Assembly: GCA_000004985.1 (NCBI GenBank)
Contig: GG738943.1
Strand: one strand, 5' to 3'
Length of the DNA: 40,920 nt
DNA from: Naegleria gruberi
Lineage: Eukaryota
In this document: one piece after another, positions 3,401 to 40,920 of the stretch
How positions within the stretch are numbered: position 1 is the stretch's first letter
How the letters are laid out: each line of letters opens with the position of its first letter
The notes under the pieces: generated by a model
The model's input: only the letters and a program-made list of their open reading frames with translations
The model's database searches: none
What the model was told of the DNA's origin: nothing
Translations under genes and position numbers: made by a program

Positions 3401-4375
3401 NNNNNNNNNNNNNNNNNNNNNNNNNNNNNNNNNNNNNNNNNNNNNNNNNNNNNNNNNNNNNNNNNNNNNNNNNNNNNNNNNNNNNNNNNNNNNNNNNNNN
3501 NNNNNNNNNNNNNNNNNNNNNNNNNNNNNNNNNNNNNNNNNNNNNNNNNNNNNNNNNNNNNNNNNNNNNNNNNNNNNNNNNNNNNNNNNNNNNNNNNNNN
3601 NNNNNNNNNNNNNNNNNNNNNNNNNNNNNNNNNNNNNNNNNNNNNNNNNNNNNNNNNNNNNNNNNNNNNNNNNNNNNNNNNNNNNNNNNNNNNNNNNNNN
3701 NNNNNNNNNNNNNNNNNNNNNNNNNNNNNNNNNNNNNNNNNNNNNNNNNNNNNNNNNNNNNNNNNNNNNNNNNNNNNNNNNNNNNNNNNNNNNNNNNNNN
3801 NNNNNNNNNNNNNNNNNNNNNNNNNNNNNNNNNNNNNNNNNNNNNNNNNNNNNNNNNNNNNNNNNNNNNNNNNNNNNNNNNNNNNNNNNNNNNNNNNNNN
3901 NNNNNNNNNNNNNNNNNNNNNNNNNNNNNNNNNNNNNNNNNNNNNNNNNNNNNNNNNNNNNNNNNNNNNNNNNNNNNNNNNNNNNNNNNNNNNNNNNNNN
4001 NNNNNNNNNNNNNNNNNNNNNNNNNNNNNNNNNNNNNNNNNNNNNNNNNNNNNNNNNNNNNNNNNNNNNNNNNNNNNNNNNNNNNNNNNNNNNNNNNNNN
4101 NNNNNNNNNNNNNNNNNNNNNNNNNNNNNNNNNNNNNNNNNNNNNNNNNNNNNNNNNNNNNNNNNNNNNNNNNNNNNNNNNNNNNNNNNNNNNNNNNNNN
4201 NNNNNNNNNNNNNNNNNNNNNNNNNNNNNNNNNNNNNNNNNNNNNNNNNNNNNNNNNNNNNNNNNNNNNNNNNNNNNNNNNNNNNNNNNNNNNNNNNNNN
4301 NNNNNNNNNNNNNNNNNNNNNNNNNNNNNNNNNNNNNNNNNNNNNNNNNNNNNNNNNNNNNNNNATACCAATAAA

Positions 4376-4486
4376 ACTCAATAGAAGAGTTAATTCTTCT
4401 CATTTTCAAATAGATTATTCAATATAGAACACATCTAGATAGTTTCCAGATCACAAAAGTCAAGATGCTATATATGGTCTTTGATT
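4376..4486. repeat. Copy A of a ~110-bp direct repeat (subtelomere-associated repeat family). It abuts the N-run, so it may extend into the gap.
   Basis: Hand alignment to 6325-6434 gives ~85% identity: actcaat-agaagagttaatt...cttctcatttt-caaatagattattcaatatagaacacatctagatagtttccagatcacaaaagtcaagatgctatatatggtc versus actcaattcaagagttaattttatttcttctttttttcatatagattattgaatatggaacacatctagcctatttccagactataaaagtccagatcccaaatatggca. Confidence 0.7.
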
Positions 4487-6324
4487 AAATTTAAAAATAG
4501 ACTGCCGTTAATTACTGGAATATTAATATTCAAAGCTTGATGATAAAGCTATTGATTGAAATCAAACAGATTATTGAATATTGATCATTGAATTGGTGAA
4601 TAATCACTCTCTTGATTCTTGATAATGCTACATATTTCATATTGCATGCAAATCAACCTGATTCAATCTACAAAGGTTGGTAGTTGCACCACTTCGTGGC
4701 GAAACTACCCATCCACGATCAATCAACATAAGAATCACTTCCATTCAACTCAATTTGACCGTTATATTCAATAAATCAATGAAATGTTCCTTTATTAGCA
4801 ATACCTATTCAATCTAATGAGTAGATTCACGTCCCAAACATTTGACTTCTAAAAGTCCATAATTCAAAAGTTAGTACTGACCTGACCTTTAAATATCTAT
4901 CAATACAAGAAATGAAAACATCAAATTTACATCATTAATAGATGATAAGAAATATAATCAATGATATGAATCTTCACTAAGTAATCTCTTAAATAACCCA
5001 AATAAATCAACTCTGAATCCTAACCAAACCCCCCTTTTCATTTCAAGAAATGAATCCGGTAGATAGTACATGATGGTAATTCAATGGAATGGCTGGAAAT
5101 CTGAAAGATATGGAAACAACTCCATTATCACTGAAATTAATATCATGATATGTAGACACTCTAATTAGCATATGGTATCAATTTCATGAATATTGGCTCA
5201 GTAGATATTGAGTTGACAACTCTATCATTTTACTATAGAACTTTGACATAAAATCAAAGATTATGCTCCAAATCACTTATTTTATATGTAATTAGTCTAG
5301 AATTGATAATACACATTCTGTACACCATTTATATACATCTATACAAGTTTAGAAACAATTCATGATACTTTCATTCAGTCAATCAGTAAATGTTCAATGT
5401 CAAGAGTGATTATATCCAAGTGTACGTTCTATCTCAGCGAAAGTACCTCCAACCGTCATGTAACTTTACCAGATACATTTAATCACGCTGATATACATCT
5501 GGAATCAATTTTAATGTTTTAGAATTGAATTCAGTATGATAATAATAACAATCTGTCAAATTGTCATATTTCAACACATTGAATATAATCCATCTCATTC
5601 ATTTTACAAAATATCATACAAGTATCAAATATGAATACACTTCCCTAGATGAGGAGAACAATCTGAGAAAGTTTCAAATTGATGGCTCAATATCTTCAAG
5701 TCAACTAAGGAAAATCTAAGGTAATCAATAGGGAAGAATCTTAATTTCAAAATTAAATTTTACCATCATATCAAAATCATTGAATAATGAATTAATTATA
5801 CAAGAATCATATATTCAATTATTATATTCATGTCAGTAATCAGTGAAGGTGACACTTCTTCAACCTTAGTATACACATCTCAATATCTAGACTGTCAATT
5901 CCACTGAAACTTGAAATACTACCTATCTAGATGATGGTATGACGACTCTTCATAGTAACATGTATGTGAAATTGAATGTTGACACTTTTCATCTCGTTAT
6001 ATTTATAGGGATGGTATCCAACAGAGTCTATTCACAATATCAAATATTGAAACTCATTCTTTATGGCATATGTGATGTCTAGAAGTGTTTTTGATGATAT
6101 CAATCTAGTTTAAAGCACTTTGGCGGAGTTGACACTGTTTAGTTACAAATACATGACATTTGGACCATAGTTTACATTCCATCTCAGTCATTTCGACGAG
6201 TTATTGATCAGTTTCACCACCATTATGTTTCTAACACACTTTAGTACAATTTATGTTTCATTAATGATTTCTGTGAAAGTTATTATCCAAATACCATATA
6301 TAGTAATATCAATAGTCGTTATAT

Positions 6325-6434
6325 ACTCAATTCAAGAGTTAATTTTATTTCTTCTTTTTTTCATATAGATTATTGAATATGGAACACATCTAGCCTATTT
6401 CCAGACTATAAAAGTCCAGATCCCAAATATGGCA
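6325..6434. repeat. Copy B of the ~110-bp direct repeat, 1949 bp downstream of copy A. Its 3' part (aaagtccagatcccaaatatgg) resembles the telomere-junction sequence at 405-440 (aagtccagacccaatgtttcaaag).
   Basis: Same alignment as copy A. No ORF of 60 aa or longer lies between the two copies. Confidence 0.7.
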
Positions 6435-6626
6435 AAATGAATTCTTGGCGAGAGGGCAAGTTTTTCTGACAAATTCCAAACTTTATTGATTATCTCAATA
6501 AATATAGAAAGTTACACCTTCCTGTTTTTACCACATGTAGATCAGTCTATTATACATCACATCGATAAGCTATAAGATCTGAGCCTGAGCATGTGCGGAT
6601 CCCAAACCAGAGAGATAATGACAGGT

Positions 6627-7063
6627 ACCAAAACCCAGTCTCCCAACAAACAACATCTTTACACCAGGTAATGGATGCCCTATAAAAGATTGCAAGGAAG
6701 AGGAGAACACTCAACACGCCATTTTCAACTGCAAGAAAACTGAATATCTTCGTGAAAGATTATGGAGAAGCCTAGAAGACAATATCCAACAAATAACCAA
6801 AAAACCTTTAGAAACAATCAGAAAAATACTAGTAACCCACTTGAAATCCAACACTATCCCTAAATATTCAACCATTTATATTGGAATACTTCCCAAAGAA
6901 GTCTACCAAACATTAGAGGCCTGGGATAAAGCACAAGAAATTCAAATAGAAATAATTAAATTCACTCACGCAATGTGGATAGAAAGATGCAACCACATAC
7001 ATCAACCAGCAACTTTACCAAACAACTATGTTTAAATAAACGAACTTACTAGCAAAAAAAAAA
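6627..7063 (+). mobile_element. 5'-truncated 3' end of a non-LTR (LINE-like) retrotransposon: the C-terminal ORF2 segment with a CCHC zinc knuckle, a short 3' UTR with AATAAA, and an A10 tail.
   Basis: Open frame 6627-7035 translates to ...GCPIKDCKEEENTQHAIFNCKKTEYLRERLW...HAMWIERCNHIHQPATLPNNYV* and carries a C-x4-C-x7-H-x4-C motif. TAA is at 7033-7035, AATAAA at 7035-7040 and ten As at 7054-7063. There is an in-frame TGA immediately upstream (~6624), so the element is truncated or degenerate. Confidence 0.45.
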
Positions 7064-7829
7064 CACAAACATAATCCATATAAAGCATGTGTCAATAATT
7101 TGGTACTCTTTTCTTGTGTAGGCATTGTCAAAGTTTGGTCCCATCAAATTTTGGAAACTATTCTTGAAGGCATTGAAATAGGATTCGAAATTTGTTTCTT
7201 TAACTGTTGGATTTTCAACCACATTTCTATTCGATTCTGATAACTGAACCGTTTCTGATCTATCCCCATCTAGAATCATATTCAAACCCTTGTGAGAACT
7301 GTGGCTGGCGCAAAGTTTGGCCACATGACCAACAAATCCTAAATTGACTTTTTTGGCATTCTTAAAGTGTCAATTGGATTCCAGGCACCTGAAGCATCTG
7401 ACATCCTACCTATATACTTTTCATCATAGAGACAATGAAGGTGATGTGAAATTTAATTAACAGAAAAATCAAAATCTTCATGGTTTCAACGAAACAAGAC
7501 GAAATAATTGATATGGTACATCTACAATAGTACTAATAAAAGTTTATTAATGTTTCAAGATGATTGGCTGTGTACTTTTGGCATGAATCATGATTGGTGA
7601 CCATGAATAACCCGAAGTTGGCAAAAACACAAAATGATGAAAATCTGATAATAAATATATTGTTTATTATGTATTTGAATAGAAGTGATGAAATATGGTC
7701 CATGTACATGTTGAAAATATACATGTATCTGACTTCATGATAACCAATAGGAAAATGTTCAATGTTCTGAAGTGATTTTACCTGGTGGAATCGACCATGA
7801 TGAACGAATCTAGATTGAAAGTTTTCCAA
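7049..7829 (-). other. Possible gene remnant or pseudogene on the minus strand. Exon-like ORF ...PDLYDNLENFQSRFVHHGRFHQ ends at a GTAAAA donor (7781). A candidate 421-nt intron (7361-7781) would join it to an ORF NAKKVNLGFVGHVAKLCASHSSHKGL...YQIIDTCFIW, which reads straight into the LINE poly(A) tract. No ATG start was found.
   Basis: Frame continuity was checked by hand across the GTAAAA...TTTAAG boundaries. The candidate intron would be much longer than the other introns in the window (54-129 nt). No recognisable domain. Confidence 0.2.
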
Positions 7830-8200
7830 ATTATCATATAAATCTGGCAGTGATATTGAATTTCACTAAAATAATACTATTATCAGATTTTTCCACAAAT
7901 ATTACTATTATAATGATGATAAATAACAATGATGAAATGTTAATATATTATTATTGTATTGATTGGATTTTGTAAAGTGTTAATTCAAGCGATCAAAACT
8001 TGAATTTCATGAAAAAGAAAACTGGCAATGTAACTTGAATCTTATTGTTTAGTAAAATACCATGAACGTGTTGATTCATGACCCAAGGTCATTTCGTCAC
8101 TCATGAATATCTGAGAGGGTGTTATGTATCCTAATATTCTAGCCAGCGCTGGATTTTCAGAATTTTGTCGAATTAAAGTGGCTGCAACCTCCTAAAATTC

Positions 8201-8251
8201 AAATTTATTCTGGATAAAATCAGATTTATCCAGATAAAAATAGAATAAATT
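8201..8251. promoter_or_regulatory. Imperfect 51-bp palindrome, 43 bp upstream of the ATG at 8294: aaatttattctggataaaatcagatttatccagataaaaatagaataaattt. Candidate promoter element or a tiny inverted-repeat (MITE-like) insertion.
   Basis: The outer 11-bp arms aaatttattct and agaataaattt are exact reverse complements. The inner 9-bp arms ctggataaa and tttatccag flank the loop atcagat. Confidence 0.3.
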
Positions 8252-8293
8252 TGAGTTTCTGAATAATAATTAATGATTAATTCAATTTAAAAA

Positions 8294-8900
8294 ATGGAAG
8301 AACTGCTAGGTATAGTCCAACAAATTAAATGTCTTACAGACATAGAATTAAAAGAAATCAATGATTTATTGAACAAGAACTTTATTAGAACTCCAAATTG
8401 TTTGAAATCTGAAAGTGCTGAAAGTTTGGCTGAAATTGGAATTAATATTAGGGTTGCAAGAATAATCATTGATTGTTCCACAGCTCATGCTTTACCAAAA
8501 CAAGATGTAGAACCAAAGGTCAAGAACAAAGATGACAAGTTTATCGAAAAATTAGAGGCTTTGGTTGAAGACGAAGTGCATTTTAAGGTTCAGTTTGAAT
8601 TACAAAATCCCTTTGAAGTTTATGATCCCATATCAAAGACCAATATTAAGTTAGGTTCTCCGTATAAGTTGTCTAATGTGAAATCCAAATTAAAAAATTA
8701 TAAGAAATCATCAGAAAAACAGAAAGTATTTGAAAGAACGCATTCTTTAATTAGAAACTATTTGGTGGACACTTATGAGGATTCCGCACCATTTACAATT
8801 ACAAGAGAATTGGTGGAAAAAGCTGAACAACATGAATCTGAAAAGAAAAAAAGAAAGAAGGAAGAACAATTACAACAAGAAAAAGAAAAACGACAAAAAG
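8294..8900 (+). CDS. Exon 1 of a hypothetical protein gene (MEELLGIVQQIKCLTDIELKEIN...EKEKRQK-). The ATG sits in an AAAAATGG context. The exon ends in phase 1 at a GTACGA donor.
   Basis: A 202-codon ORF. The stop seen in the ORF track (TAA at 8912) lies inside a 54-nt GT...AG intron (8901-8954, ~80% A+T). The reading frame continues unbroken after the intron. Confidence 0.55.
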
Positions 8901-8954
8901 GTACGAGTGATTAAATTATTTTTTGATTTAATTGTTAATTATTATTTGTTAAAG

Positions 8955-9525
8955 ACTTACAAAAAAAAAGAAATATTAAGGCAAGTTCGAAAAATGCTTA
9001 TGCAAGAATATTGCACTATCAAGCAAAAGAGAATGAGTTTAAGGAAAAATTAAACACCTCTCAATTACGATTTTTATCCTCAATTGATTGCATCAAGGAG
9101 CTAATAAGCAAGAATACATTGACGACAGAGGAAATAATCAAACTTGATTGGATTCAAAATATGTTTGTGGTTAAAAAGAAATTTTCAGCAGAAACTATCA
9201 ATTTATTCAAAAGAACATTGAATAATAATACGAACGGAATTGACTTTCTTCGGTTAAATGGTGCACCAATACCTTCAAAACAAACTTTGAAAAAAAATAC
9301 ATCAACAAGTGATCTATCATTCCACATTCTCATCACACTAGCACATAGATTTTTTGAATCATCAAGTAAGAAAAGGATTTCTTCTTCCGATCAGATATCA
9401 TTAAATCTATCAATCGATTCTACAGCATTAAATCAGGATATTTCTATTGATTTAAAGGATAACAAACTATACGGATTTGAAGAAGTTATTCAACTTGAAA
9501 ATGATGAAGCTTTCAAACAATTATT
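8955..9525 (+). CDS. Exon 2 (partial, runs into the N-run) of the same hypothetical gene: DLQKKRNIKASSKNAYARILHYQAKENEFKEKLNTSQLRFLSSIDCIKEL...LENDEAFKQLL. No domain recognised by eye.
   Basis: The frame is continuous from exon 1 once the 54-nt intron is removed (length divisible by 3, acceptor ttgttaaag|ac). The ORF runs open for 190 codons until the gap begins at 9526. Confidence 0.5.
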
Positions 9526-13552: not shown

Positions 13553-15011
13553 CTCCCACCACTTGACTCATCCATTCCTTTCTGAGCTTTCCAACTCCGT
13601 GATGATGAGATAAACTTCCACCTTGAAGTAAGATTTCATCTCTTGCTTCAGCTTCAATCTCTGAGAATGCCTTAATTGGATCTTGTAATCCTCTAAAGAT
13701 GAATCCATAATAGAAATAGATACAGGCACCAGTTTCGTATACTTGAGTGACACGAGCCGAAACCCATGGTGTTGGAACATTTCGTTGCTTGGCACTTTCT
13801 TTGACTCTTTCTTCTACTTTCTTGATCATTGGAACGACTCTTGACCAAGGAGCTGAAGTTTCAAAACTTTCTGACATGAAATAATAATTGAAACCATAAT
13901 CTCTCAAATACGCAATGACATAGGTCAGTAAATAACCTCGATAACCAGCTTCAGCACCTGCCACAAGTCCTCCATATTTAGCAGTTATGTCATAAATAAT
14001 TTTCTGTTGCCTGTCAATGTCAGATTGACTTCCTTCGAATAATAAAGTAATGACACACATCTTTTCCTTATCAAATCCACAACCCTTAGTAACGTACAAT
14101 CCCTTAAACCAATCACTAAGGCCTTCAAGCTTACTTTCTTGTTTAGGTTTTAGTGATTGACCAAACTGAAATTGAGAATTGTCAATTAGACGAATCGAAG
14201 CAGGAGCAACTCTTCTATTCGAAACTTCATGAAGACAAGCAACTCCTGCCTCAAAATCAGGAACCAACACAGAGCCATAAACTTGACATTCAGGACATTT
14301 CCTTACTCTTAATGTCACTTCTGTCACAATTCCCAAAATTCCTTCAGATCCCATAAATAGCTGCATCAAATCTGGTCCAGTTGACTTTCGTGGAACATTA
14401 CATGGAAGAAACCAAGTTCCCTTTGGAGTGACAATCTTGACATTTACCAACATATCTTCGATATTTCCATATTCATTCTTTTTCATTCCTGATGCACGAG
14501 TTGCAATCCAACCGCCAAGAGAACTGAATTCAATGCTGTCTGGTTCGTGACCTAGTGTCAGATTGTATTTTTGTTTGAGTTCTTGTTGGAGATCAATACC
14601 AATGGCACCTGATTGGATGGTGGCAGTGTGACAGGTCATGTCAACATTTAAAATTTTGTTCATTTCTTGAAGGTCAACTGAGACAATCATTCTTGTTTCA
14701 TTTTCTGGACAGAGTAAAGCTTGTGTAACGTTCGTTCCTCCTCCATATGGAATTAATGTCAATTCATTGGAATATTTAGTGGCAAGTGACACAATCTTCT
14801 CGACATGTTCATGAGAATTTGGATAGATTACAACATCGACCAATCTCTTGAACTTTCCAAATCTTAATTGATAAATCTCTTGACAACAATGTCCATGAGA
14901 ATGCATCAAACGAACCTCATCATCAAATGTCAAATATTTGTAACATTTGACTTGCCTTAATTCCTCAATAAATTTTTCACAAATATTTGGCTTGTGAATT
15001 TTTTGTTTCAT
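13553..15011 (-). CDS. AGPS: Alkyldihydroxyacetone-phosphate synthase (alkylglycerone-phosphate synthase, FAD-linked oxidase family; peroxisomal ether-lipid biosynthesis). The N-terminal 486 codons are visible and intronless. The 3' end (about 30-40 codons) is hidden in the N-run.
   Basis: ATG is at 15009-15011 (minus strand), with an in-frame stop 9 codons upstream. The FAD-binding PCMH region reads LVDVVIYPNSHEHVEKIVSLATKYSNELTLIPYGGGTNV. The motifs HSHGH and HHHGVGKLRKEWM match the catalytic His-His-His loop characteristic of AGPS. Confidence 0.85.
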
Positions 15012-18000
15012 TTCTGACCATGATTGACTTGAAGATTCGAATTTTTATTCAAACCTGTGAAATTCTCAAANNNNNNNNNNNNNNNNNNNNNNNNNNNNNN
15101 NNNNNNNNNNNNNNNNNNNNNNNNNNNNNNNNNNNNNNNNNNNNNNNNNNNNNNNNNNNNNNNNNNNNNNNNNNNNNNNNNNNNNNNNNNNNNNNNNNNN
15201 NNNNNNNNNNNNNNNNNNNNNNNNNNNNNNNNNNNNNNNNNNNNNNNNNNNNNNNNNNNNNNNNNNNNNNNNNNNNNNNNNNNNNNNNNNNNNNNNNNNN
15301 NNNNNNNNNNNNNNNNNNNNNNNNNNNNNNNNNNNNNNNNNNNNNNNNNNNNNNNNNNNNNNNNNNNNNNNNNNNNNNNNNNNNNNNNNNNNNNNNNNNN
15401 NNNNNNNNNNNNNNNNNNNNNNNNNNNNNNNNNNNNNNNNNNNNNNNNNNNNNNNNNNNNNNNNNNNNNNNNNNNNNNNNNNNNNNNNNNNNNNNNNNNN
15501 NNNNNNNNNNNNNNNNNNNNNNNNNNNNNNNNNNNNNNNNNNNNNNNNNNNNNNNNNNNNNNNNNNNNNNNNNNNNNNNNNNNNNNNNNNNNNNNNNNNN
15601 NNNNNNNNNNNNNNNNNNNNNNNNNNNNNNNNNNNNNNNNNNNNNNNNNNNNNNNNNNNNNNNNNNNNNNNNNNNNNNNNNNNNNNNNNNNNNNNNNNNN
15701 NNNNNNNNNNNNNNNNNNNNNNNNNNNNNNNNNNNNNNNNNNNNNNNNNNNNNNNNNNNNNNNNNNNNNNNNNNNNNNNNNNNNNNNNNNNNNNNNNNNN
15801 NNNNNNNNNNNNNNNNNNNNNNNNNNNNNNNNNNNNNNNNNNNNNNNNNNNNNNNNNNNNNNNNNNNNNNNNNNNNNNNNNNNNNNNNNNNNNNNNNNNN
15901 NNNNNNNNNNNNNNNNNNNNNNNNNNNNNNNNNNNNNNNNNNNNNNNNNNNNNNNNNNNNNNNNNNNNNNNNNNNNNNNNNNNNNNNNNNNNNNNNNNNN
16001 NNNNNNNNNNNNNNNNNNNNNNNNNNNNNNNNNNNNNNNNNNNNNNNNNNNNNNNNNNNNNNNNNNNNNNNNNNNNNNNNNNNNNNNNNNNNNNNNNNNN
16101 NNNNNNNNNNNNNNNNNNNNNNNNNNNNNNNNNNNNNNNNNNNNNNNNNNNNNNNNNNNNNNNNNNNNNNNNNNNNNNNNNNNNNNNNNNNNNNNNNNNN
16201 NNNNNNNNNNNNNNNNNNNNNNNNNNNNNNNNNNNNNNNNNNNNNNNNNNNNNNNNNNNNNNNNNNNNNNNNNNNNNNNNNNNNNNNNNNNNNNNNNNNN
16301 NNNNNNNNNNNNNNNNNNNNNNNNNNNNNNNNNNNNNNNNNNNNNNNNNNNNNNNNNNNNNNNNNNNNNNNNNNNNNNNNNNNNNNNNNNNNNNNNNNNN
16401 NNNNNNNNNNNNNNNNNNNNNNNNNNNNNNNNNNNNNNNNNNNNNNNNNNNNNNNNNNNNNNNNNNNNNNNNNNNNNNNNNNNNNNNNNNNNNNNNNNNN
16501 NNNNNNNNNNNNNNNNNNNNNNNNNNNNNNNNNNNNNNNNNNNNNNNNNNNNNNNNNNNNNNNNNNNNNNNNNNNNNNNNNNNNNNNNNNNNNNNNNNNN
16601 NNNNNNNNNNNNNNNNNNNNNNNNNNNNNNNNNNNNNNNNNNNNNNNNNNNNNNNNNNNNNNNNNNNNNNNNNNNNNNNNNNNNNNNNNNNNNNNNNNNN
16701 NNNNNNNNNNNNNNNNNNNNNNNNNNNNNNNNNNNNNNNNNNNNNNNNNNNNNNNNNNNNNNNNNNNNNNNNNNNNNNNNNNNNNNNNNNNNNNNNNNNN
16801 NNNNNNNNNNNNNNNNNNNNNNNNNNNNNNNNNNNNNNNNNNNNNNNNNNNNNNNNNNNNNNNNNNNNNNNNNNNNNNNNNNNNNNNNNNNNNNNNNNNN
16901 NNNNNNNNNNNNNNNNNNNNNNNNNNNNNNNNNNNNNNNNNNNNNNNNNNNNNNNNNNNNNNNNNNNNNNNNNNNNNNNNNNNNNNNNNNNNNNNNNNNN
17001 NNNNNNNNNNNNNNNNNNNNNNNNNNNNNNNNNNNNNNNNNNNNNNNNNNNNNNNNNNNNNNNNNNNNNNNNNNNNNNNNNNNNNNNNNNNNNNNNNNNN
17101 NNNNNNNNNNNNNNNNNNNNNNNNNNNNNNNNNNNNNNNNNNNNNNNNNNNNNNNNNNNNNNNNNNNNNNNNNNNNNNNNNNNNNNNNNNNNNNNNNNNN
17201 NNNNNNNNNNNNNNNNNNNNNNNNNNNNNNNNNNNNNNNNNNNNNNNNNNNNNNNNNNNNNNNNNNNNNNNNNNNNNNNNNNNNNNNNNNNNNNNNNNNN
17301 NNNNNNNNNNNNNNNNNNNNNNNNNNNNNNNNNNNNNNNNNNNNNNNNNNNNNNNNNNNNNNNNNNNNNNNNNNNNNNNNNNNNNNNNNNNNNNNNNNNN
17401 NNNNNNNNNNNNNNNNNNNNNNNNNNNNNNNNNNNNNNNNNNNNNNNNNNNNNNNNNNNNNNNNNNNNNNNNNNNNNNNNNNNNNNNNNNNNNNNNNNNN
17501 NNNNNNNNNNNNNNNNNNNNNNNNNNNNNNNNNNNNNNNNNNNNNNNNNNNNNNNNNNNNNNNNNNNNNNNNNNNNNNNNNNNNNNNNNNNNNNNNNNNN
17601 NNNNNNNNNNNNNNNNNNNNNNNNNNNNNNNNNNNNNNNNNNNNNNNNNNNNNNNNNNNNNNNNNNNNNNNNNNNNNNNNNNNNNNNNNNNNNNNNNNNN
17701 NNNNNNNNNNNNNNNNNNNNNNNNNNNNNNNNNNNNNNNNNNNNNNNNNNNNNNNNNNNNNNNNNNNNNNNNNNNNNNNNNNNNNNNNNNNNNNNNNNNN
17801 NNNNNNNNNNNNNNNNNNNNNNNNNNNNNNNNNNNNNNNNNNNNNNNNNNNNNNNNNNNNNNNNNNNNNNNNNNNNNNNNNNNNNNNNNNNNNNNNNNNN
17901 NNNNNNNNNNNNNNNNNNNNNNNNNNNNNNNNNNNNNNNNNNNNNNNNNNNNNNNNNNNNNNNNNNNNNNNNNNNNNNNNNNNNNNNNNNNNNNNNNNNN

Positions 18001-33350: not shown

Positions 33351-33794
33351 AATAGCCTGACAGGGTTGATGAACGATGATGATGATGATATACTTCCAGT
33401 CATTTCATGTTTCCAACCAGTTATTGATCCAAAAGATGGTTCAATGATTGTTGGTATTCGAAACAATTTCCCAACCAACTTGTTTCAAATCTATTCTCAG
33501 AATGAACGTGGTGTATGGTCATGTGTGAAATCCATTGCAAAGGAAGGATTGTTTTCTTATCCACAAGATGAAGACATTTCCTTTTCATTTCTTCTCGACC
33601 AGACGAATCAATACATTCTCTTAAATAAGGAAGGACATGGTCTGTTGATGGTTAGTGTGGAGAGTGGCGCCATTGTCAAATCATTTGAGAATAGAAAGGA
33701 GGGTGCCAATGTTGGTGGAATGTGTTTCAATTCAATTAGTGGTGAATTATTTGTTTGTGATGCTCAATATGGTGTTGTGAGAGTTTTCAAATAA
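33351..33794 (+). CDS. C-terminal 147 codons of a + strand gene whose body lies in the 18.3-kb N-run. It has NHL-repeat-like beta-propeller blades (e.g. GANVGGMCFNSISGELFVCDAQYGVVRVFK*).
   Basis: Open frame from the gap edge to TAA at 33792-33794. The G-x-hydrophobic...D-x-x-N/Y-x-hydrophobic-x-V-F pattern is typical of NHL repeats. An acidic run DDDDD is also present. Confidence 0.4.
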   Translation, partial: NSLTGLMNDDDDDILPVISCFQPVIDPKDGSMIVGIRNNFPTNLFQIYSQNERGVWSCVKSIAKEGLFSYPQDEDISFSFLLDQTNQYILLNKEGHGLLMVSVESGAIVKSFENRKEGANVGGMCFNSISGELFVCDAQYGVVRVFK

Positions 33795-33977
33795 GGCAAT
33801 CATGATGATTCACAGTTCCAATACTAAATACTAACCAACAGCTAAATTCTGTTAAAGTCCTCAAGAAAAAGATGGTTCAAATCAAATTGACCAAATATGA
33901 AAAGGTTCCATTTTTGAACTTCAAATAATTGGACTAAAGAAAGATAATAAACAGTTAATTCAAATAATTCAAAAGAA

Positions 33978-34477
33978 ATGCATCAAACTGATCATCATTC
34001 TACTGCTACATCATCATCTGGCAGTTTTAAAGTATTCTACAGTGATTTGGACTTGTGGGCTCTCACAGTTGACCAATTAAAACAACACATGAAAGATTTG
34101 GGAATTTATCATGGTTGTTCCCATTTGAGAAAGGAAGAATTAATTGAAAAGATTAAAGAATTCAATCATTTGGTGGAGGAACATCATCATCATGATCATC
34201 ATGGAGAGAAGAGAAAACACAATGATTCTGAAATAAAGAAGGAAGAAAGTCCAAAGAAGGAGAAGGTGAGTGATGATATTCTGGAGGAGGATTTGTTGCA
34301 TCCACATTCATTCAGTTCCTTGTCCATTTCAAAAAAGGAAGAACCAGCTGAGGTTGCAGCAACCACTCATCATCATATTACTAGCTCTCACAAATCTAAA
34401 GAACATAGAAAGAGAAGATTTGTTTCCAGTTGTCCAATTAAAACTCAAGAAAGAATTGAAAGAGCTCTCACTCAAAA
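33978..34477 (+). CDS. Exon 1 of a SAP-SWIM-RING-variant protein gene. A SAP-like motif (LTVDQLKQHMKDLGIYHGCSHLRKEELIEKIKEF) is followed by His-rich low-complexity sequence (HHHHDHH, THHH). The donor is CAAAA|GTAGGT.
   Basis: ATG at 33978 in a context aaagaaATGc. The ORF-track stop (TAG at 34479) overlaps the GTAGGT donor. Splicing to 34545 keeps the frame open. Confidence 0.65.
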
Positions 34478-34544
34478 GTAGGTTGTTCCAATAATTTCAC
34501 AATTAATTCAATAATGATAATACTATTTAACACATATCATGTAG

Positions 34545-34695
34545 ATTATTCCTCATAGAAAGAAAGGTAAATAGTGCTCATGAGCAGACATTTGTCGTGA
34601 TGGGAACAACAGGTAATGTCTATGATGTTGTTATTGGTGAAGAACCTTCGTGTAATTGTCCTGATGCAGAGAATGGTAATCTGTGTAAACATGTT
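34545..34695 (+). CDS. Exon 2 of the same gene, encoding ...LFLIERKVNSAHEQTFVVMGTTGNVYDVVIGEEPSCNCPDAENGNLCKHVV, a SWIM-type zinc finger (C-x-C-x9-C-x-H).
   Basis: Intron 1 is 34478-34544 (67 nt, acceptor catgtag|a). The donor GTAAGT is at 34696. Frame was verified codon by codon. Confidence 0.6.
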
Positions 34696-34824
34696 GTAAG
34701 TAGTCTTTCCTTTTCTCTCTAATTAATTATCTATCTGTTGTTAATCACATGATGATGTAAATATATTTGTTAATTATTATTATAATGTTGTGTAAATTAA
34801 ATCAAGTTATTCGTTCTGTTGAAG

Positions 34825-35376
34825 GTACTACGTATAGAAGAGTCTTCCTATCTCATCTATCAACATGCCTTGCTACCATCAGAAATAGAGGAAATATTCA
34901 AGAAGGCTCCAGCTAATAATTCCATGGCAAATTCACAAGCCATAGCCACCTACAAACATCTAAAAGGAGAAGAGGAGAGAAATCCCTTCATCACTTCCAA
35001 TTGTCCTATTTGTTGTGATGGATTTTCTCAACTGGATGAACAGAAGGAGGCAGGATATTGTCATTGTTGTGGAGTAAATGTTCATGCGGATTGTTTAAAG
35101 GCATGGAAAGGATTTAATAAGGAGTATCCGTGTCCCATCTGTAAAGCTAGCAAGATGGGAGAAGGAGGAGGTGGTGTTGTTGCTTCTTCTTCTCATCATC
35201 ACTCCAACAACAATCAAGCCAAGATGAATGAAGGCTATTTAAATTTATCTGAATTTCAGCCTGAAATTAAAACTACAGAGAGGGAGTATGTTCATTCTAG
35301 TCGATGGAATCAACGGTACGGCTACAATGATGATGATGAAAGTTCTTCCAATCAAGAAGATGATGAAGAGTATTAA
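34825..35376 (+). CDS. Exon 3 of the same gene. It contains a C4HC3 RING-variant/PHD-like finger (CPICCDGF...YCHCCGVNVHADC...CPICK), Gly-, Ser-, His- and Asn-rich runs and an acidic tail. The overall SWIM plus RING-variant layout resembles the MEKK1 N-terminus and ZSWIM2 (MEX) E3 ligases.
   Basis: Intron 2 is 34696-34824 (129 nt, acceptor tgttgaag|g). An ORF of 184 codons ends at TAA 35374-35376. Cysteine and histidine spacing was read directly. Confidence 0.65.
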   Translation, partial: VLRIEESSYLIYQHALLPSEIEEIFKKAPANNSMANSQAIATYKHLKGEEERNPFITSNCPICCDGFSQLDEQKEAGYCHCCGVNVHADCLKAWKGFNKEYPCPICKASKMGEGGGGVVASSSHHHSNNNQAKMNEGYLNLSEFQPEIKTTEREYVHSSRWNQRYGYNDDDESSSNQEDDEEY

Positions 35377-35527
35377 TGTGAGTGAATAATATTGAAATTT
35401 TTATTTTGTTTTTTTGATGGATGAAATTTTTCTTTGCTTTTTCATTTTTAATTGTTGTTGTGGCGGGAAATGTTTACTGTAAATAATAAGAATTTTTCAA
35501 AATATTAATTTTATATTATAATACAAT

Positions 35528-35763
35528 TTATTCACTTGCTTTGGAATAGGTTTCCTCGTAGCCATCACTGGTAATTTGTCTGTTATTCTTCTTCAAGCTC
35601 AATAATTTCAAAAACATTCTGCTGACGAATCTCACTAAAAAGCCATATGGAATACTGATGAAACCAATGGAAATAGTTATGGCCCATTGATACCAATTCA
35701 ATGGAATGGTCTGTGTAAAATTGGAGGCAGTCAAACCATCATTCTTACCCAAACCAATAAGAA
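35528..35763 (-). CDS. C-terminal 78 codons of a P-type cation ATPase, most likely a type II Ca2+-ATPase. This is the last transmembrane helix (PLNWYQWAITISIGFISIPYGFLVRFV) plus the cytosolic tail. The rest of the gene lies in the 3.86-kb N-run.
   Basis: TGA at 35528-35530 (minus strand), followed immediately by an AATAAA overlapping the stop. The L-N-W-x-Q-W...G-x-x-S-x-P motif matches the TM10 region of PMCA/SERCA-family pumps. The apparent N-terminus at 39670 in the ORF track is an artefact. Confidence 0.5.
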
Positions 35764-38700: not shown

Positions 38701-39638
38701 NNNNNNNNNNNNNNNNNNNNNNNNNNNNNNNNNNNNNNNNNNNNNNNNNNNNNNNNNNNNNNNNNNNNNNNNNNNNNNNNNNNNNNNNNNNNNNNNNNNN
38801 NNNNNNNNNNNNNNNNNNNNNNNNNNNNNNNNNNNNNNNNNNNNNNNNNNNNNNNNNNNNNNNNNNNNNNNNNNNNNNNNNNNNNNNNNNNNNNNNNNNN
38901 NNNNNNNNNNNNNNNNNNNNNNNNNNNNNNNNNNNNNNNNNNNNNNNNNNNNNNNNNNNNNNNNNNNNNNNNNNNNNNNNNNNNNNNNNNNNNNNNNNNN
39001 NNNNNNNNNNNNNNNNNNNNNNNNNNNNNNNNNNNNNNNNNNNNNNNNNNNNNNNNNNNNNNNNNNNNNNNNNNNNNNNNNNNNNNNNNNNNNNNNNNNN
39101 NNNNNNNNNNNNNNNNNNNNNNNNNNNNNNNNNNNNNNNNNNNNNNNNNNNNNNNNNNNNNNNNNNNNNNNNNNNNNNNNNNNNNNNNNNNNNNNNNNNN
39201 NNNNNNNNNNNNNNNNNNNNNNNNNNNNNNNNNNNNNNNNNNNNNNNNNNNNNNNNNNNNNNNNNNNNNNNNNNNNNNNNNNNNNNNNNNNNNNNNNNNN
39301 NNNNNNNNNNNNNNNNNNNNNNNNNNNNNNNNNNNNNNNNNNNNNNNNNNNNNNNNNNNNNNNNNNNNNNNNNNNNNNNNNNNNNNNNNNNNNNNNNNNN
39401 NNNNNNNNNNNNNNNNNNNNNNNNNNNNNNNNNNNNNNNNNNNNNNNNNNNNNNNNNNNNNNNNNNNNNNNNNNNNNNNNNNNNNNNNNNNNNNNNNNNN
39501 NNNNNNNNNNNNNNNNNNNNNNNNNNNNNNNNNNNNNNNNNNNNNNNNNNNNNNNNNNNNNNNNNNNNNNNNNNNNNNNNNNNNNNNNNNNNNNNNNNNN
39601 NNNNNNNNNNNNNNNNNNNNNNNGAACTGTCAGAGCTT

Positions 39639-40592
39639 TCATACTTTCTCAGTTGAGTGATTAATGACACCTGTACATTTGTAAATATGTTGTGAATTTG
39701 GATTTCTATATTCGGAAGTTTCTGGTCTTATCATGCAATGAGTTTCAGATGAAACAAATGTTGCAAAACAACTCTTTTTAAAGTATTCTTGCTCTAATAG
39801 AGTCCAATCAGAACTATCTATTGATAAAGAGCTTAAAAATTTGACATCTTGACCATTGACATTTAGAGATTCACAATCAGCTCTGTAAAATTTCCAAAAA
39901 TCTTCAATAGAAACGTTGCCAGATTGACGACACTGTCTTCTCTCATAACCAATCTCTCCCAGAGTTTCTCTCGATGCCTTCTTACAAAATGTCAGAAATC
40001 TGTCACTTCTCAAAAAAAGTGGAAAAACGTCTTCTTTGAGCTGTCTCTTAACTGTCACTAATGCTTCATCAAAAATGTTAATTGGATCCACCATTATAAA
40101 GGTAGAAGTCTCACTCATTGAAAAGCTCGTTTGCTTATTTGTTGAAGTTTCTGAATGTTCATCACTTTCGTTTTCTTTCTTATTGAGCATTTGCTTACTA
40201 TTAGAAACATGTTTCAACTCACAATTTTGTGGACTATTACCTAACAATCTCTTCACCCTCTCAAGTACTTGATTTCTCTCTCTTTTTCCAATGTTAATTT
40301 CATGCGCGGAGCCAACAACAATAAAACGCTCTACAATATTCTGAGCAAGTTTCGTCTGAAGTTCAGTCAGAGCTTGTCCTTCGAATGATTTAAATTCGAG
40401 AACTTTCTCATAGAAGAGGATAGCTTCTGGGGAATGTAAACTCTTCATTAGGAATTCTTTGAATAATTTCATCGTTCTTTGGTTGAGTATGACCTTGTCA
40501 AAGACAAATTGAAATTGTAAAGTGGTAGCATTTTGGTCAATGGATGTAGATGTTGTGGTATTGTTGGTGGTAGAGTTATTCTTGTGAGTCAT
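39639..40592 (-). CDS. Regulator of G-protein signalling (RGS) domain protein, 317 aa, intronless. The N-terminus is T/N-rich low complexity. The RGS domain carries a ~40-aa insertion.
   Basis: ATG at 40590-40592 and TGA at 39639-39641. RGS signature blocks read directly: MKLFKEFLMKSLHSPEAILFYEKVLEFK, AQNIVERFIVVGSAHEINIGKRERNQV, and DEALVTVKRQLKEDVFPLFLRSDRFLTF. Confidence 0.75.
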   Translation of the reverse strand: MTHKNNSTTNNTTTSTSIDQNATTLQFQFVFDKVILNQRTMKLFKEFLMKSLHSPEAILFYEKVLEFKSFEGQALTELQTKLAQNIVERFIVVGSAHEINIGKRERNQVLERVKRLLGNSPQNCELKHVSNSKQMLNKKENESDEHSETSTNKQTSFSMSETSTFIMVDPINIFDEALVTVKRQLKEDVFPLFLRSDRFLTFCKKASRETLGEIGYERRQCRQSGNVSIEDFWKFYRADCESLNVNGQDVKFLSSLSIDSSDWTLLEQEYFKKSCFATFVSSETHCMIRPETSEYRNPNSQHIYKCTGVINHSTEKV

Positions 40593-40920
40593 GTTTTGTT
40601 TTTTTGGTCAATTTTTCAGATAGTTTCGAATAACTTTATTGTTGGGCAGGTTTTTAAAATTTGCCTTTTTAGTAATTTGTTTGCCTGTCATTTCAATGCT
40701 CCTGAAAAATTGAGATTAATTGTGTCATCAAATCCATAAAAATCCTTGTTCTGTAAAAGTTTCGGCCACTTTCAGTTTCTAATTTGGTAAAATTTGGTTT
40801 TTCACATGACAAGTTTTCAAATTCATGTTCTCATACCTTATTTCTAGCACCATTGGTTCATTTAAAGTGATATTGGTAACCCAGATTCGAATAGTTTTAT
40901 ATTCGAAATGCATCCATTAT

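What the first reader, a model, noticed from the sequence alone, without database searches (positions are those of the whole stretch)
33978..35376. SAP + SWIM + C4HC3 RING-variant protein: MEKK1/ZSWIM2-like E3 architecture without a kinase domain
Three exons with short introns (67 and 129 nt). They encode a SAP-like DNA/chromatin-binding motif, His-rich tracts, a SWIM zinc finger (CNCPDAENGNLCKHV) and a C-x2-C...C-x2-C-x4-H-x2-C...C-x2-C finger. The SWIM plus RING-variant pairing is the regulatory module of MEKK1 and of ZSWIM2 ubiquitin ligases. Finding it fused to a SAP motif, with no kinase domain, in a protist-like genome is an unusual domain combination.
Basis: partly seen in the sequence, partly recalled or inferred. 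Interest (0 to 1): 0.5.

Follow-up and report, generated by a model that had tools for sequence, protein, structure and literature searches.

The report
Kinase-less SWIM–RING ubiquitin ligase gene
This is an already-annotated but unstudied Naegleria gruberi gene for a probable ubiquitin ligase built from the same SWIM-plus-RING zinc-finger module that human MEKK1 carries, here without a kinase, and it belongs to a large family found across eukaryotes, so it is a sound but fairly ordinary find.

Summary
The gene is real. Window 33978-35376 (+) encodes a 406-aa protein identical to an NCBI 'predicted protein' of Naegleria gruberi. The intron 2 acceptor is wrong by 18 nt: exon 3 starts at 34807, not 34825, so the intron is 111 nt, not 129.

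With the correct model, SWIM scores 31.1 bits (cut-off 19.6). Residues 153-331 align collinearly with PDB 9p40, 'MEKK1 SWIM and RING Domains' (E 6.6e-14; family profile 8.8e-25). The RING is C4HC3.

The N-terminal 'SAP' is below the Pfam threshold (13.8 vs 23.9 bits). Its predicted fold is helix-extended-helix, closest to the Rho N-terminal domain and to SAP domains.

The architecture is not rare. The kinase-less SWIM-RING family has over 1000 50%-identity clusters across Discoba, stramenopiles, cryptophytes, Rhizaria and fungi. About 10% of the sampled members carry an N-terminal SAP. 86% share a previously unremarked C-terminal EGYxNL...Y motif.

Most likely function: a nucleic-acid- or chromatin-tethered RING E3 ubiquitin ligase. 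This is inferred, not shown.

The parts
33978..34477 (+). Exon 1 (aa 1-166 plus 2 nt). Contains the start codon, the HeH/SAP-like domain, the His-rich/basic disordered linker and the start of the SWIM module's N-terminal helix.
   Evidence: ORF and translation. The corrected model is identical to N. gruberi protein P0001.
34478..34544 (+). Intron 1, 67 nt, GTAGGT...TGTAG, 24% GC.
   Evidence: Read-through hits a stop at 34479-34481. The junction gives 'RALTQK|LFLIERK', which matches the family consensus 'RAxxQRLFLI' and N. fowleri.
34545..34695 (+). Exon 2 (151 nt). Contains the beta-strands of the SWIM module and the zinc ligands C203, C205, C214 and H216.
34696..34806 (+). Intron 2, 111 nt, GTAAGT...TCAAG.
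   Evidence: One search lists both in-frame acceptors. Homology, Pfam and identity to P0001 select 34807.
34807..35376 (+). Exon 3. Contains the SWIM C-terminal helix (LFVLLKVL...), the helical connector, the RING, the C-terminal motif, the acidic tail and the stop codon.
34038..34190 (+). N-terminal helix-extended-helix (SAP/Rho_N-like) domain, aa 21-71.
34191..34394 (+). Disordered linker with His-rich, acidic and basic stretches, aa 72-139. Contains KRKH; the second basic cluster, HRKRR, lies just downstream at aa 143-147 in the SWIM-RING module.
   Evidence: pLDDT is below 50. The region is not conserved in length or sequence among homologues. Reading the basic clusters as nuclear-localisation signals is inference only.
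34395..35154 (+). SWIM-RING module, aa 140-333, spanning both introns. Order: basic EKRxxRF stretch, N-terminal helix, three beta-strands, CxC...CxH, helices, C4HC3 RING.
   Evidence: PDB 9p40 (MEKK1 SWIM and RING) aligns to aa 153-331 at E 6.6e-14 and to the family profile at 8.8e-25. pLDDT is mostly above 80 (60-97 per 10-residue block). Pfam SWIM scores 31.1 bits over aa 193-224.
35002..35148 (+). C4HC3 RING finger, aa 283-331. Ligands are C283, C286, C302, C305, H310, C313, C326 and C329. I285, W317 and K330 sit at positions that usually contact the E2.
   Evidence: One search gives the positions. All eight ligands and W317 are invariant in 16 sequences. zf-RING_2 scores 22.7 bits here (below the 27.3 cut-off) and 36-38 bits in homologues. 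Foldseek matches RING domains at probability 0.96-0.99.
35227..35316 (+). Conserved C-terminal motif NEGYLNLSEFQ...EREYVHSSRW, aa 358-387. The family consensus is EGYxNLxxxQGxSxxRDTSTY.
   Evidence: Present in 141 of 164 family members, a median of 21 aa after the RING. Conserved in N. fowleri. It is a local pLDDT island of about 70 with a beta-bridge at residue 363.

Best explanation
The locus is the Naegleria gruberi member of an ancient, kinase-less SWIM-RING protein family that is homologous to the N-terminal E3 module of metazoan MEKK1/MAP3K1. It most likely acts as a single-subunit RING-type E3 ubiquitin ligase.

Proposed roles of the parts:
- The C4HC3 RING (aa 283-331) recruits a ubiquitin-charged E2.
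- The adjoining SWIM domain (aa ~150-250), which forms one confidently predicted unit with the RING, provides the substrate- or partner-binding surface, as reported for MEKK1.
- The N-terminal helix-extended-helix domain (aa 21-71), joined by a disordered His-rich/basic linker, tethers the ligase to nucleic acid or chromatin, or to a protein partner.
- The conserved C-terminal EGYxNL...Y motif is a docking or autoregulatory element.

Shown here: the gene structure, homology to the MEKK1 SWIM-RING module, conservation of all 12 zinc ligands, absence of a kinase, the family's breadth, and the predicted HeH fold.

Inferred only: E3 activity, the SWIM domain's role as receptor, nucleic-acid binding, nuclear location, and the role of the C-terminal motif.
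For: Gene model:
- The 406-aa product is identical to N. gruberi P0001.

Homology:
- The match to PDB 9p40 'MEKK1 SWIM and RING Domains' is collinear (E 6.6e-14; profile 8.8e-25).
- Pfam SWIM scores above its cut-off.
- All 16 aligned members hit both SWIM and zf-RING_2.
- The invariant residues are C203, C205, C214 and H216 in SWIM, and C283, C286, C302, C305, H310, C313, C326, C329 and W317 in the RING. R330 is present in at least 90% of members (K here).

RING character:
- Foldseek matches RING E3 domains at probability 0.96-0.99.
- The family profile hits EL5, AMFR, RNF4, HRD1 and other RING E3s.

Function of the module in MEKK1, from the literature:
- The RING/PHD has E3 activity and the SWIM binds c-Jun as a substrate receptor (Lu 2002 and Rieger 2012, as summarised in PMC7474687, and PMC10236294).

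HeH domain:
- AF2 pLDDT is 85-95.

Selection on the whole architecture:
- The N. fowleri orthologue is 40% identical end to end, including the HeH domain and the C-terminal motif.
Against: - No biochemical or expression data exist for any member of the kinase-less family. Literature searches found none.
- In this protein zf-RING_2 (22.7 bits) is below the Pfam cut-off. The ligand spacing (C-x2-C-x4-H-x2-C) is PHD-like, so a non-catalytic reader finger is not strictly excluded.
- SAP is below threshold.
- An HMM built from the SAP domains of 12 other family members does not detect the Naegleria N-terminus (score -1.7, against shuffles up to 6.9).
- In Rho itself, RNA is bound mainly by the neighbouring OB fold, so an HeH fold does not guarantee nucleic-acid binding. 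The SLX4 SAP binds a protein (MUS81).
- The whole-model pTM is only 0.46, and the inter-domain geometry was not inspected.
- Structure searches did not return 9p40. It may not be in those libraries.
Confidence: 0.7

Rival explanations
1. A non-catalytic zinc-finger scaffold or chromatin reader. In this view the C4HC3 finger works as a PHD-type reader of histone tails, and the SWIM and HeH domains bind DNA. The protein would then be a transcription or chromatin regulator rather than a ligase.
For: - The ligand spacing C-x2-C-x4-H-x2-C is PHD-like, and the MEKK1 finger was first called a PHD domain (PMC4356348).
- Ten of 16 family members give weak Pfam PHD hits (best E 0.0077).
- SWIM occurs in DNA-associated proteins.
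- HeH/SAP domains are typical of chromatin proteins.
Against: - RING models score far better than PHD across the family (zf-RING_2 down to 9.6e-10, zf-ANAPC11 1.7e-9, zf-rbx1 2.3e-8).
- P0001 has no PHD hit at E<=10.
- The E2-contact-type residues are conserved: I/V after the first Cys, an invariant Trp317, and R/K after the last Cys.
- The homologous MEKK1 finger is an active E3 according to the literature.
Confidence: 0.12
2. A RAD18-like post-replication-repair ligase. UniRef names the N. fowleri orthologue this way. The protein would be a RING + SAP E3 that is recruited to stalled forks and mono-ubiquitylates PCNA with Rad6.
For: - UniRef labels the N. fowleri orthologue 'Postreplication repair E3 ubiquitin-protein ligase RAD18'.
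- RAD18 also combines a RING with a SAP domain (general knowledge).
- SWIM proteins such as Sws1/ZSWIM7 act in recombination repair (PMC10236294).
Against: - The domain order is reversed: HeH at the N-terminus and RING near the C-terminus.
- A SWIM domain is present, which RAD18 lacks.
- Pfam shows no UBZ-type finger and no Rad6-binding region, and NCBIfam gives no hit.
- The best solved relative is MEKK1, not RAD18.
- The name looks like automatic transfer based on RING + SAP similarity.
Confidence: 0.05
3. A truncated or mis-modelled MEKK-type kinase gene. The kinase exons would lie elsewhere on the scaffold, for example in the N-masked parts, so the 'kinase-less' state would be an annotation artefact.
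For: - Most of the window is masked with N, so neighbouring sequence cannot be read.
- Diatom homologues carry the database name 'kinase kinase'.
Against: - The ORF ends at a stop (35374-35376). A convergent minus-strand gene ends 151 nt further on, at 35528.
- The upstream + strand gene ends at 33794 with its own stop.
- The C-terminal motif and tail length match 141 of 164 homologues, whose proteins end 30-50 aa after the motif.
- Transcript-derived homologues (MMETSP) marked 'type:complete' end in the same way.
- None of the 10 longest members has a kinase domain.
Confidence: 0.02

Closest known systems
MEKK1 / MAP3K1 N-terminal SWIM-RING module (PDB 9p40)
   Same: - The SWIM domain and then the C4HC3 RING align collinearly, including the helix before SWIM and the 'C-x-H-(V/L)LFV(L/M)L(K/R)V' helix after it.
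- The ligand pattern is the same.
- In MEKK1 the RING is an E3 and the SWIM binds the substrate c-Jun.
   Different: - There is no TOG domain, caspase site, UIM or kinase domain.
- An N-terminal HeH domain is present instead.
- The C-terminal EGYxNL...Y motif follows the RING where the solved 9p40 construct ends; the MEKK1 sequence beyond it was not examined.
- The SWIM core of the kinase-less family (GSTGNVY...CxCPD..GNLCKH) is much more conserved within the family than it is to MEKK1.
- Identity to MEKK1 is low, and the relationship is that of a homologous module, not orthology.
ZSWIM2 / MEX (testis E3 ligase)
   Same: It has a SWIM followed by a RING in a kinase-less E3 (PMC10236294; PMC9277888).
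   Different: - ZSWIM2 also has a ZZ finger and a second RING. Neither is found here (no ZZ hit at E<=10).
- No ZSWIM2 sequence was available for direct comparison, so the degree of relatedness is untested.
SAP-containing RING-type ligases (RAD18; PIAS/Siz SUMO ligases)
   Different: The domain order and partner domains differ (PINIT/SP-RING or UBZ/Rad6-binding, against SWIM). There is no sequence-level membership. This is an analogy of design, not homology of the whole protein.
Rho_N-type HeH domains (bacterial Rho N-terminus)
   Different: The score is below the Pfam cut-off (24.9), and no OB fold follows the domain. Homology as opposed to convergence of a very small fold cannot be settled.

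Membership tests
SWIM zinc finger (Pfam PF04434) | A C-x-C-x(n)-C-x-H zinc signature and a score above the Pfam gathering cut-off (19.6 bits). | tested here: met
C203, C205, C214 and H216 are present. The score is 31.1 bits (E 1.6e-7) with the corrected exon 3 start at 34807.
MEKK1-type SWIM-RING module | Collinear homology of SWIM, connector and C4HC3 RING to the solved MEKK1 module. | tested here: met
   PDB 9p40 aligns to aa 153-331 at E 6.6e-14. The family profile scores E 8.8e-25.
MEKK1 / MAP3K1 (whole protein) | A C-terminal Ser/Thr kinase domain, plus a TOG domain. | tested here: not met
   Pfam finds no kinase or other domain. The gene is bounded by neighbouring genes. None of the 10 longest family members has a kinase.
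RING finger E3 (Pfam zf-RING_2 PF13639) | Eight cross-brace ligands and a score above the cut-off (27.3 bits). | tested here: inconclusive
   All eight ligands are present and invariant. This protein scores 22.7 bits, below the cut-off, while homologues score 36-38 bits. Foldseek matches RING domains at probability 0.96-0.99.
RING finger E3 | E2-dependent ubiquitin transfer. | not testable with these tools
   This is inferred from the conserved I285, W317 and K/R330 and from MEKK1 literature.
RING-variant / RING-CH (Pfam RINGv PF12906) | C4HC3 with MARCH-type spacing and a score above the cut-off (21.6 bits). | tested here: not met
   The score is 13.1 bits (E 0.11). The spacing C-x2-C-x4-H differs from the C-x-C-x7-H that I recall for RING-CH. 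The ligand pattern is C4HC3, but the protein is not a RINGv family member.
PHD finger (PF00628) | A score above the cut-off (24 bits). | tested here: not met
   P0001 has no hit at E<=10. Homologues give only weak hits (best E 0.0077).
SAP domain (PF02037) | A sequence match above the cut-off (23.9 bits) across the helix-loop-helix motif. | tested here: not met
   The score is 13.8 bits (E 0.045), and only profile positions 5-19 of 37 align. An HMM built from the family's other SAP domains scores -1.7, which is below shuffled controls.
HeH superfamily (SAP / LEM / Rho_N fold) | A helix, extended loop, helix fold. | tested here: met
   [not shown]
HeH superfamily | Nucleic-acid or chromatin binding. 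| not testable with these tools
   No assay is possible with these tools. This is inference only.
ZSWIM2 / MEX | A SWIM plus a RING, plus a ZZ finger and a second RING. | tested here: not met
   Only one RING is present, and there is no ZZ hit at E<=10.
RAD18 | An N-terminal C3HC4 RING, a UBZ finger, a central SAP domain and a C-terminal Rad6-binding domain. | tested here: not met
   The order is reversed and a SWIM is present. There are no UBZ or RAD18-type hits in Pfam or NCBIfam. The UniRef name for the N. fowleri orthologue is not supported.
Kinase-less pan-eukaryotic SWIM-RING family (unnamed) | An EKRxxRF basic stretch, a GSTGNVY...CxCPD..GNLCKH SWIM core, a C4HC3 RING and a C-terminal EGYxNL...Y motif. 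| tested here: met
   All four elements are present. The protein is 30-39% identical to members from other eukaryotic supergroups. The family has 1082 clusters at E<=1e-30.

The most novel reading that the evidence does not exclude
The kinase-less SWIM-RING proteins may be an ancestral, possibly LECA-age, stand-alone E3 ligase family whose module was later captured by metazoan MEKK1. In different lineages the family would be steered to nucleic acid, chromatin or ubiquitin-system partners by interchangeable N-terminal heads: a Rho_N-like HeH in Naegleria, a canonical SAP in diatoms and others, and a ubiquitin-like domain in one member. The near-universal C-terminal EGYxNL...RDTSTY motif would be a new autoregulatory or partner-docking element that engages the SWIM surface.
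Probability: 0.25. Interest if true: 0.55.

Novelty: new variant of a known kind. Interest (0 to 1): 0.33.

Why it matters
The only studied SWIM-RING E3 modules are in animal MEKK1, where the module is tied to a kinase, and in the testis protein ZSWIM2.

This work shows that the same module exists as a compact, stand-alone and strongly conserved protein across Discoba, stramenopiles, cryptophytes, Rhizaria and fungi. It also carries an extra conserved C-terminal motif that I did not find described in my literature searches. That gives MEKK1 researchers an evolutionary outgroup. It also offers genetically tractable systems, such as fungi and diatoms, for asking what a SWIM domain does next to a RING.

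For Naegleria itself, the result adds one candidate chromatin- or nucleic-acid-directed ubiquitin ligase. It also corrects misleading automatic names for relatives ('RAD18', 'kinase kinase'). It does not change any general concept.

Tried and rejected
Rejected. It deletes LFVLLK, loses the Pfam SWIM hit and disagrees with all homologues and with the deposited protein.
- **Profile search of the word-indexed database with the full alignment.** It returned only 17 hits because low-complexity words swamped the candidate list. A second search with the trimmed SWIM core returned mostly fragments of 207 aa or less. It was useful only for taxon names.
- **Shared origin of the Naegleria HeH and the SAP of other members.** My first seed HMM included Naegleria sequences, so it could not test this. 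The independent HMM failed to detect Naegleria, and common origin is left open.
- **Context of the second N. gruberi copy.** The look-up of encoding contigs for P0002 found nothing.
- **Literature.** Searches for SAP+SWIM+RING, 'MAPKKK-related SWIM', PF04434+PF13639 and a 9p40 paper found nothing relevant. 'Naegleria + SWIM' returned only swimming-pool papers. Rieger 2012 could not be opened.
- **RAD18 and truncated-kinase readings.** Both rejected; see the rival explanations.
Full report
**Where the window comes from**

The window is a 40,920-bp Naegleria gruberi scaffold. Most of it is masked with N, and the finding lies in an unmasked island at 33351-35763. The product of the corrected gene model is 100% identical over 406 aa to an NCBI/UniRef 'predicted protein [Naegleria gruberi]' whose longest contig is 40,920 bp. 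The letter-for-letter identity was verified.

**Check of the observation**

- the start codon at 33978;
- the stop codon ending at 35376;
- intron 1 at 34478-34544 (67 nt, GT..AG);
- the intron 2 donor at 34696 (GTAAGT).

Exons are 36-39% GC and introns 23% GC.

The intron 2 acceptor is not as described. Two in-frame AG acceptors exist, giving exon 3 starts at 34807 and 34825. The start at 34807 gives a 111-nt intron and a 406-aa protein reading 'CKHV|LFVLLKVLRIEESS'.

Four lines of evidence select 34807:
- Pfam SWIM hits only the 406-aa model (1.6e-7, 31.1 bits, cut-off 19.6). It does not hit the 400-aa model at all.
- All 15 aligned homologues, two of them from transcriptomes, read CKH(V/I/L)LFVLLKVL at this position.
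- The N. fowleri orthologue and MEKK1 align through the junction without a gap.
- The deposited protein is the 406-aa form.

The remaining features are confirmed: the His-rich tracts, the SWIM signature (C203, C205, C214, H216) and the C4HC3 finger (C283, C286, C302, C305, H310, C313, C326, C329).

**What it is**

The strongest single result is a collinear match of aa 153-331 to PDB 9p40, 'MEKK1 SWIM and RING Domains'. It scores E 6.6e-14 with the single sequence and 8.8e-25 with a 16-sequence profile.

The finger is a RING by several tests:
- Family members score up to 9.6e-10 on zf-RING_2, and also hit zf-ANAPC11 and zf-rbx1.
- The profile hits many solved RING E3s.
- Foldseek matches RING domains at probability 0.96-0.99.

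In this particular protein zf-RING_2 is just below the cut-off (22.7 vs 27.3 bits). RINGv is clearly below it (13.1 vs 21.6 bits), and PHD gives no hit. The ligand pattern is C4HC3, but the protein is not a member of the RING-CH/RINGv family.

**The N-terminal 'SAP'**

At the sequence level this is not demonstrated:
- SAP scores 13.8 bits against a cut-off of 23.9, and only the first half of the profile aligns.
- Rho_N scores 18.5 bits against a cut-off of 24.9 but covers the whole helix-loop-helix.

The full model also matches the DEK, FAN1 and Ku70 SAP regions. I therefore call it an HeH (SAP/Rho_N-like) domain.

**The family**

A profile search of 1.84 billion 50%-identity representatives gave 1082 proteins at E<=1e-30 and 4363 at E<=1e-10. 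The weaker tier will include SWIM-only and RING-only proteins.

Named members come from several groups:
- Naegleria gruberi and N. fowleri (Discoba);
- Seminavis robusta and Phaeothamnion (stramenopiles);
- Rhodomonas salina (cryptophyte);
- Reticulomyxa filosa (Rhizaria);
- asco-, basidio- and zoopagomycete fungi: Westerdykella, Xylaria, Collariella, Haloplaca, Naganishia, Syncephalis and Dimargaris.

Identity between supergroups is 30-39% over the module. The SWIM core is strikingly conserved: GSTGNVYxV...CxCPD..(K/R)GNLCKH(V/I)LFV(L/M)LKV. None of the 10 longest members contains a kinase domain, and one has an N-terminal ubiquitin-like domain.

- a basic 'EKRLxRFR' stretch and helix before SWIM;
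- a C-terminal motif, EGYxNLxxxQGxSxxRDTSTY, present in 141 of 164 members a median of 21 residues after the RING. In N. gruberi it reads NEGYLNLSEFQ...EREYVHSSRW, and it is conserved in N. fowleri.

**Is HeH/SAP + SWIM + RING unusual?**

It is not very unusual.
- Pfam SAP hits, all sub-threshold but all at the extreme N-terminus, occur in 4 of 16 aligned members. The best is 21.6 bits, E 1.6e-4.
- A motif HMM finds an N-terminal 'LSRKELQxxLKxxGLxAxGTTxxLRERY' SAP in roughly 17 of 155 representatives. One of them is the diatom Seminavis robusta.

There is an important caveat. An HMM built only from 12 non-Naegleria SAP-bearing members does not detect the N. gruberi or N. fowleri N-terminus. 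The scores are -1.7 and -1.8, while shuffled controls reach 6.9 and 10.6. The Naegleria head is therefore a distinct, Rho_N-like HeH variant with a longer loop. Whether it shares an origin with the SAP of other members or was acquired separately remains open.

**Mechanism**

This section is inference, marked as such. In MEKK1 the RING/'PHD' finger has E3 activity, and the SWIM domain binds c-Jun as a substrate receptor (Lu 2002 and Rieger 2012, as summarised in PMC7474687, and PMC10236294).

The Naegleria protein keeps all zinc ligands. It also keeps residues at positions that usually contact the E2 or activate E2~Ub in RING E3s, a point that rests on established RING structural knowledge:
- I285 after the first Cys;
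- the invariant W317;
- K330 directly after the last Cys, where at least 90% of the family has Arg.

SWIM and RING are predicted as one confident unit (aa 140-333). The most likely reading is a single-chain RING E3 whose specificity comes from the SWIM surface. It would be targeted by the HeH head through a flexible His-rich/basic linker. The KRKH and HRKRR clusters in and just after the linker look like nuclear-localisation signals, but this is untested.

The C-terminal motif is a local pLDDT island of about 70 with a beta-bridge at residue 363. That hints that it docks onto the folded module. A role as an autoregulatory or partner-docking element is speculative.

**Rivals**

- *PHD-like reader or scaffold.* Not excluded, but disfavoured by the RING-versus-PHD scores and by the conserved E2-contact residues.
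- *RAD18.* This is the UniRef name for the N. fowleri orthologue. It fails on domain order, on the presence of SWIM and on the absence of UBZ or Rad6-binding hits.
- *Truncated kinase gene.* This is excluded by the flanking genes, by the family-wide position of the C-terminus and by the architectures of complete transcripts.

**Novelty and verdict**

The gene is already in the databases as an uncharacterised predicted protein. The SWIM-RING module is a known kind. The kinase-less, HeH-headed architecture with the C-terminal motif is a variant of it. In the searchable literature I found no description of this family.

One splice junction was wrong. The 'SAP' label is only HeH-level. The claim of rarity does not hold. 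Interest is moderate to low. The main value is as an evolutionary outgroup for the MEKK1 E3 module and as a conserved eukaryotic E3 family of unknown function.

Noticed in passing
window 1-40920: About 72% of the window is masked with N. Readable islands are only 1-994, 4365-9525, 13553-15070, 33351-35763 and 39624-40920. As a result the ORF lister reports huge spurious 'ORFs' through the N runs.
   Followed up: partly
window 33351-33794 (+): This is the C-terminal end of an upstream gene on the same strand (…GELFVCDAQYGVVRVFK, then a stop), 183 nt before the ATG of the SWIM-RING gene. It has no significant Pfam hit; the only match is Peroxin-22 at E 0.034.
   Followed up: partly
window 35528-35763 (-): A convergent gene ends 151 nt after the stop codon. 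Its C-terminal fragment has a transmembrane-like stretch and a weak, sub-threshold Cation_ATPase_C hit (E 0.003, 17.8 bits against a cut-off of 27.3). It is possibly a P-type ATPase.
   Followed up: partly
P0002 (N. gruberi, 401 aa, on a 196,593-bp scaffold): A second N. gruberi copy is 97% identical. Its 13 differences are mostly indels in the His, Gly and acidic low-complexity tracts, plus a few conservative substitutions. It is either an allelic haplotig or a very recent paralogue. Its genomic context could not be retrieved.
   Followed up: partly
P0068/P0176 (N. fowleri XP_044563074.1); P0048/P0175 (Seminavis robusta): Database names for relatives look like misleading automatic transfers. 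The N. fowleri orthologue is called 'Postreplication repair E3 ubiquitin-protein ligase RAD18', and the 358-aa kinase-less diatom homologues are called 'kinase kinase'.
   Followed up: yes
window 35227-35316 (aa 358-387) and homologues: A C-terminal motif, EGYxNLxxxQGxSxxRDTSTY, follows the RING in 141 of 164 family members and is followed by a Tyr/Arg/Gly-rich tail.
   Followed up: partly
P0042 (545 aa, family representative): One family member carries an N-terminal ubiquitin-like domain (Pfam ubiquitin, 7e-8) in place of the SAP/HeH head. This suggests that the N-terminal targeting heads are interchangeable.
   Followed up: no
N-termini of P0001 / P0068 versus 12 other SAP-bearing members: The Naegleria HeH head is not detected by an HMM of the family's other SAP domains. 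Both kinds nevertheless sit at the same N-terminal position. Independent acquisition and extreme divergence cannot be told apart.
   Followed up: partly
[not shown]
   Followed up: no
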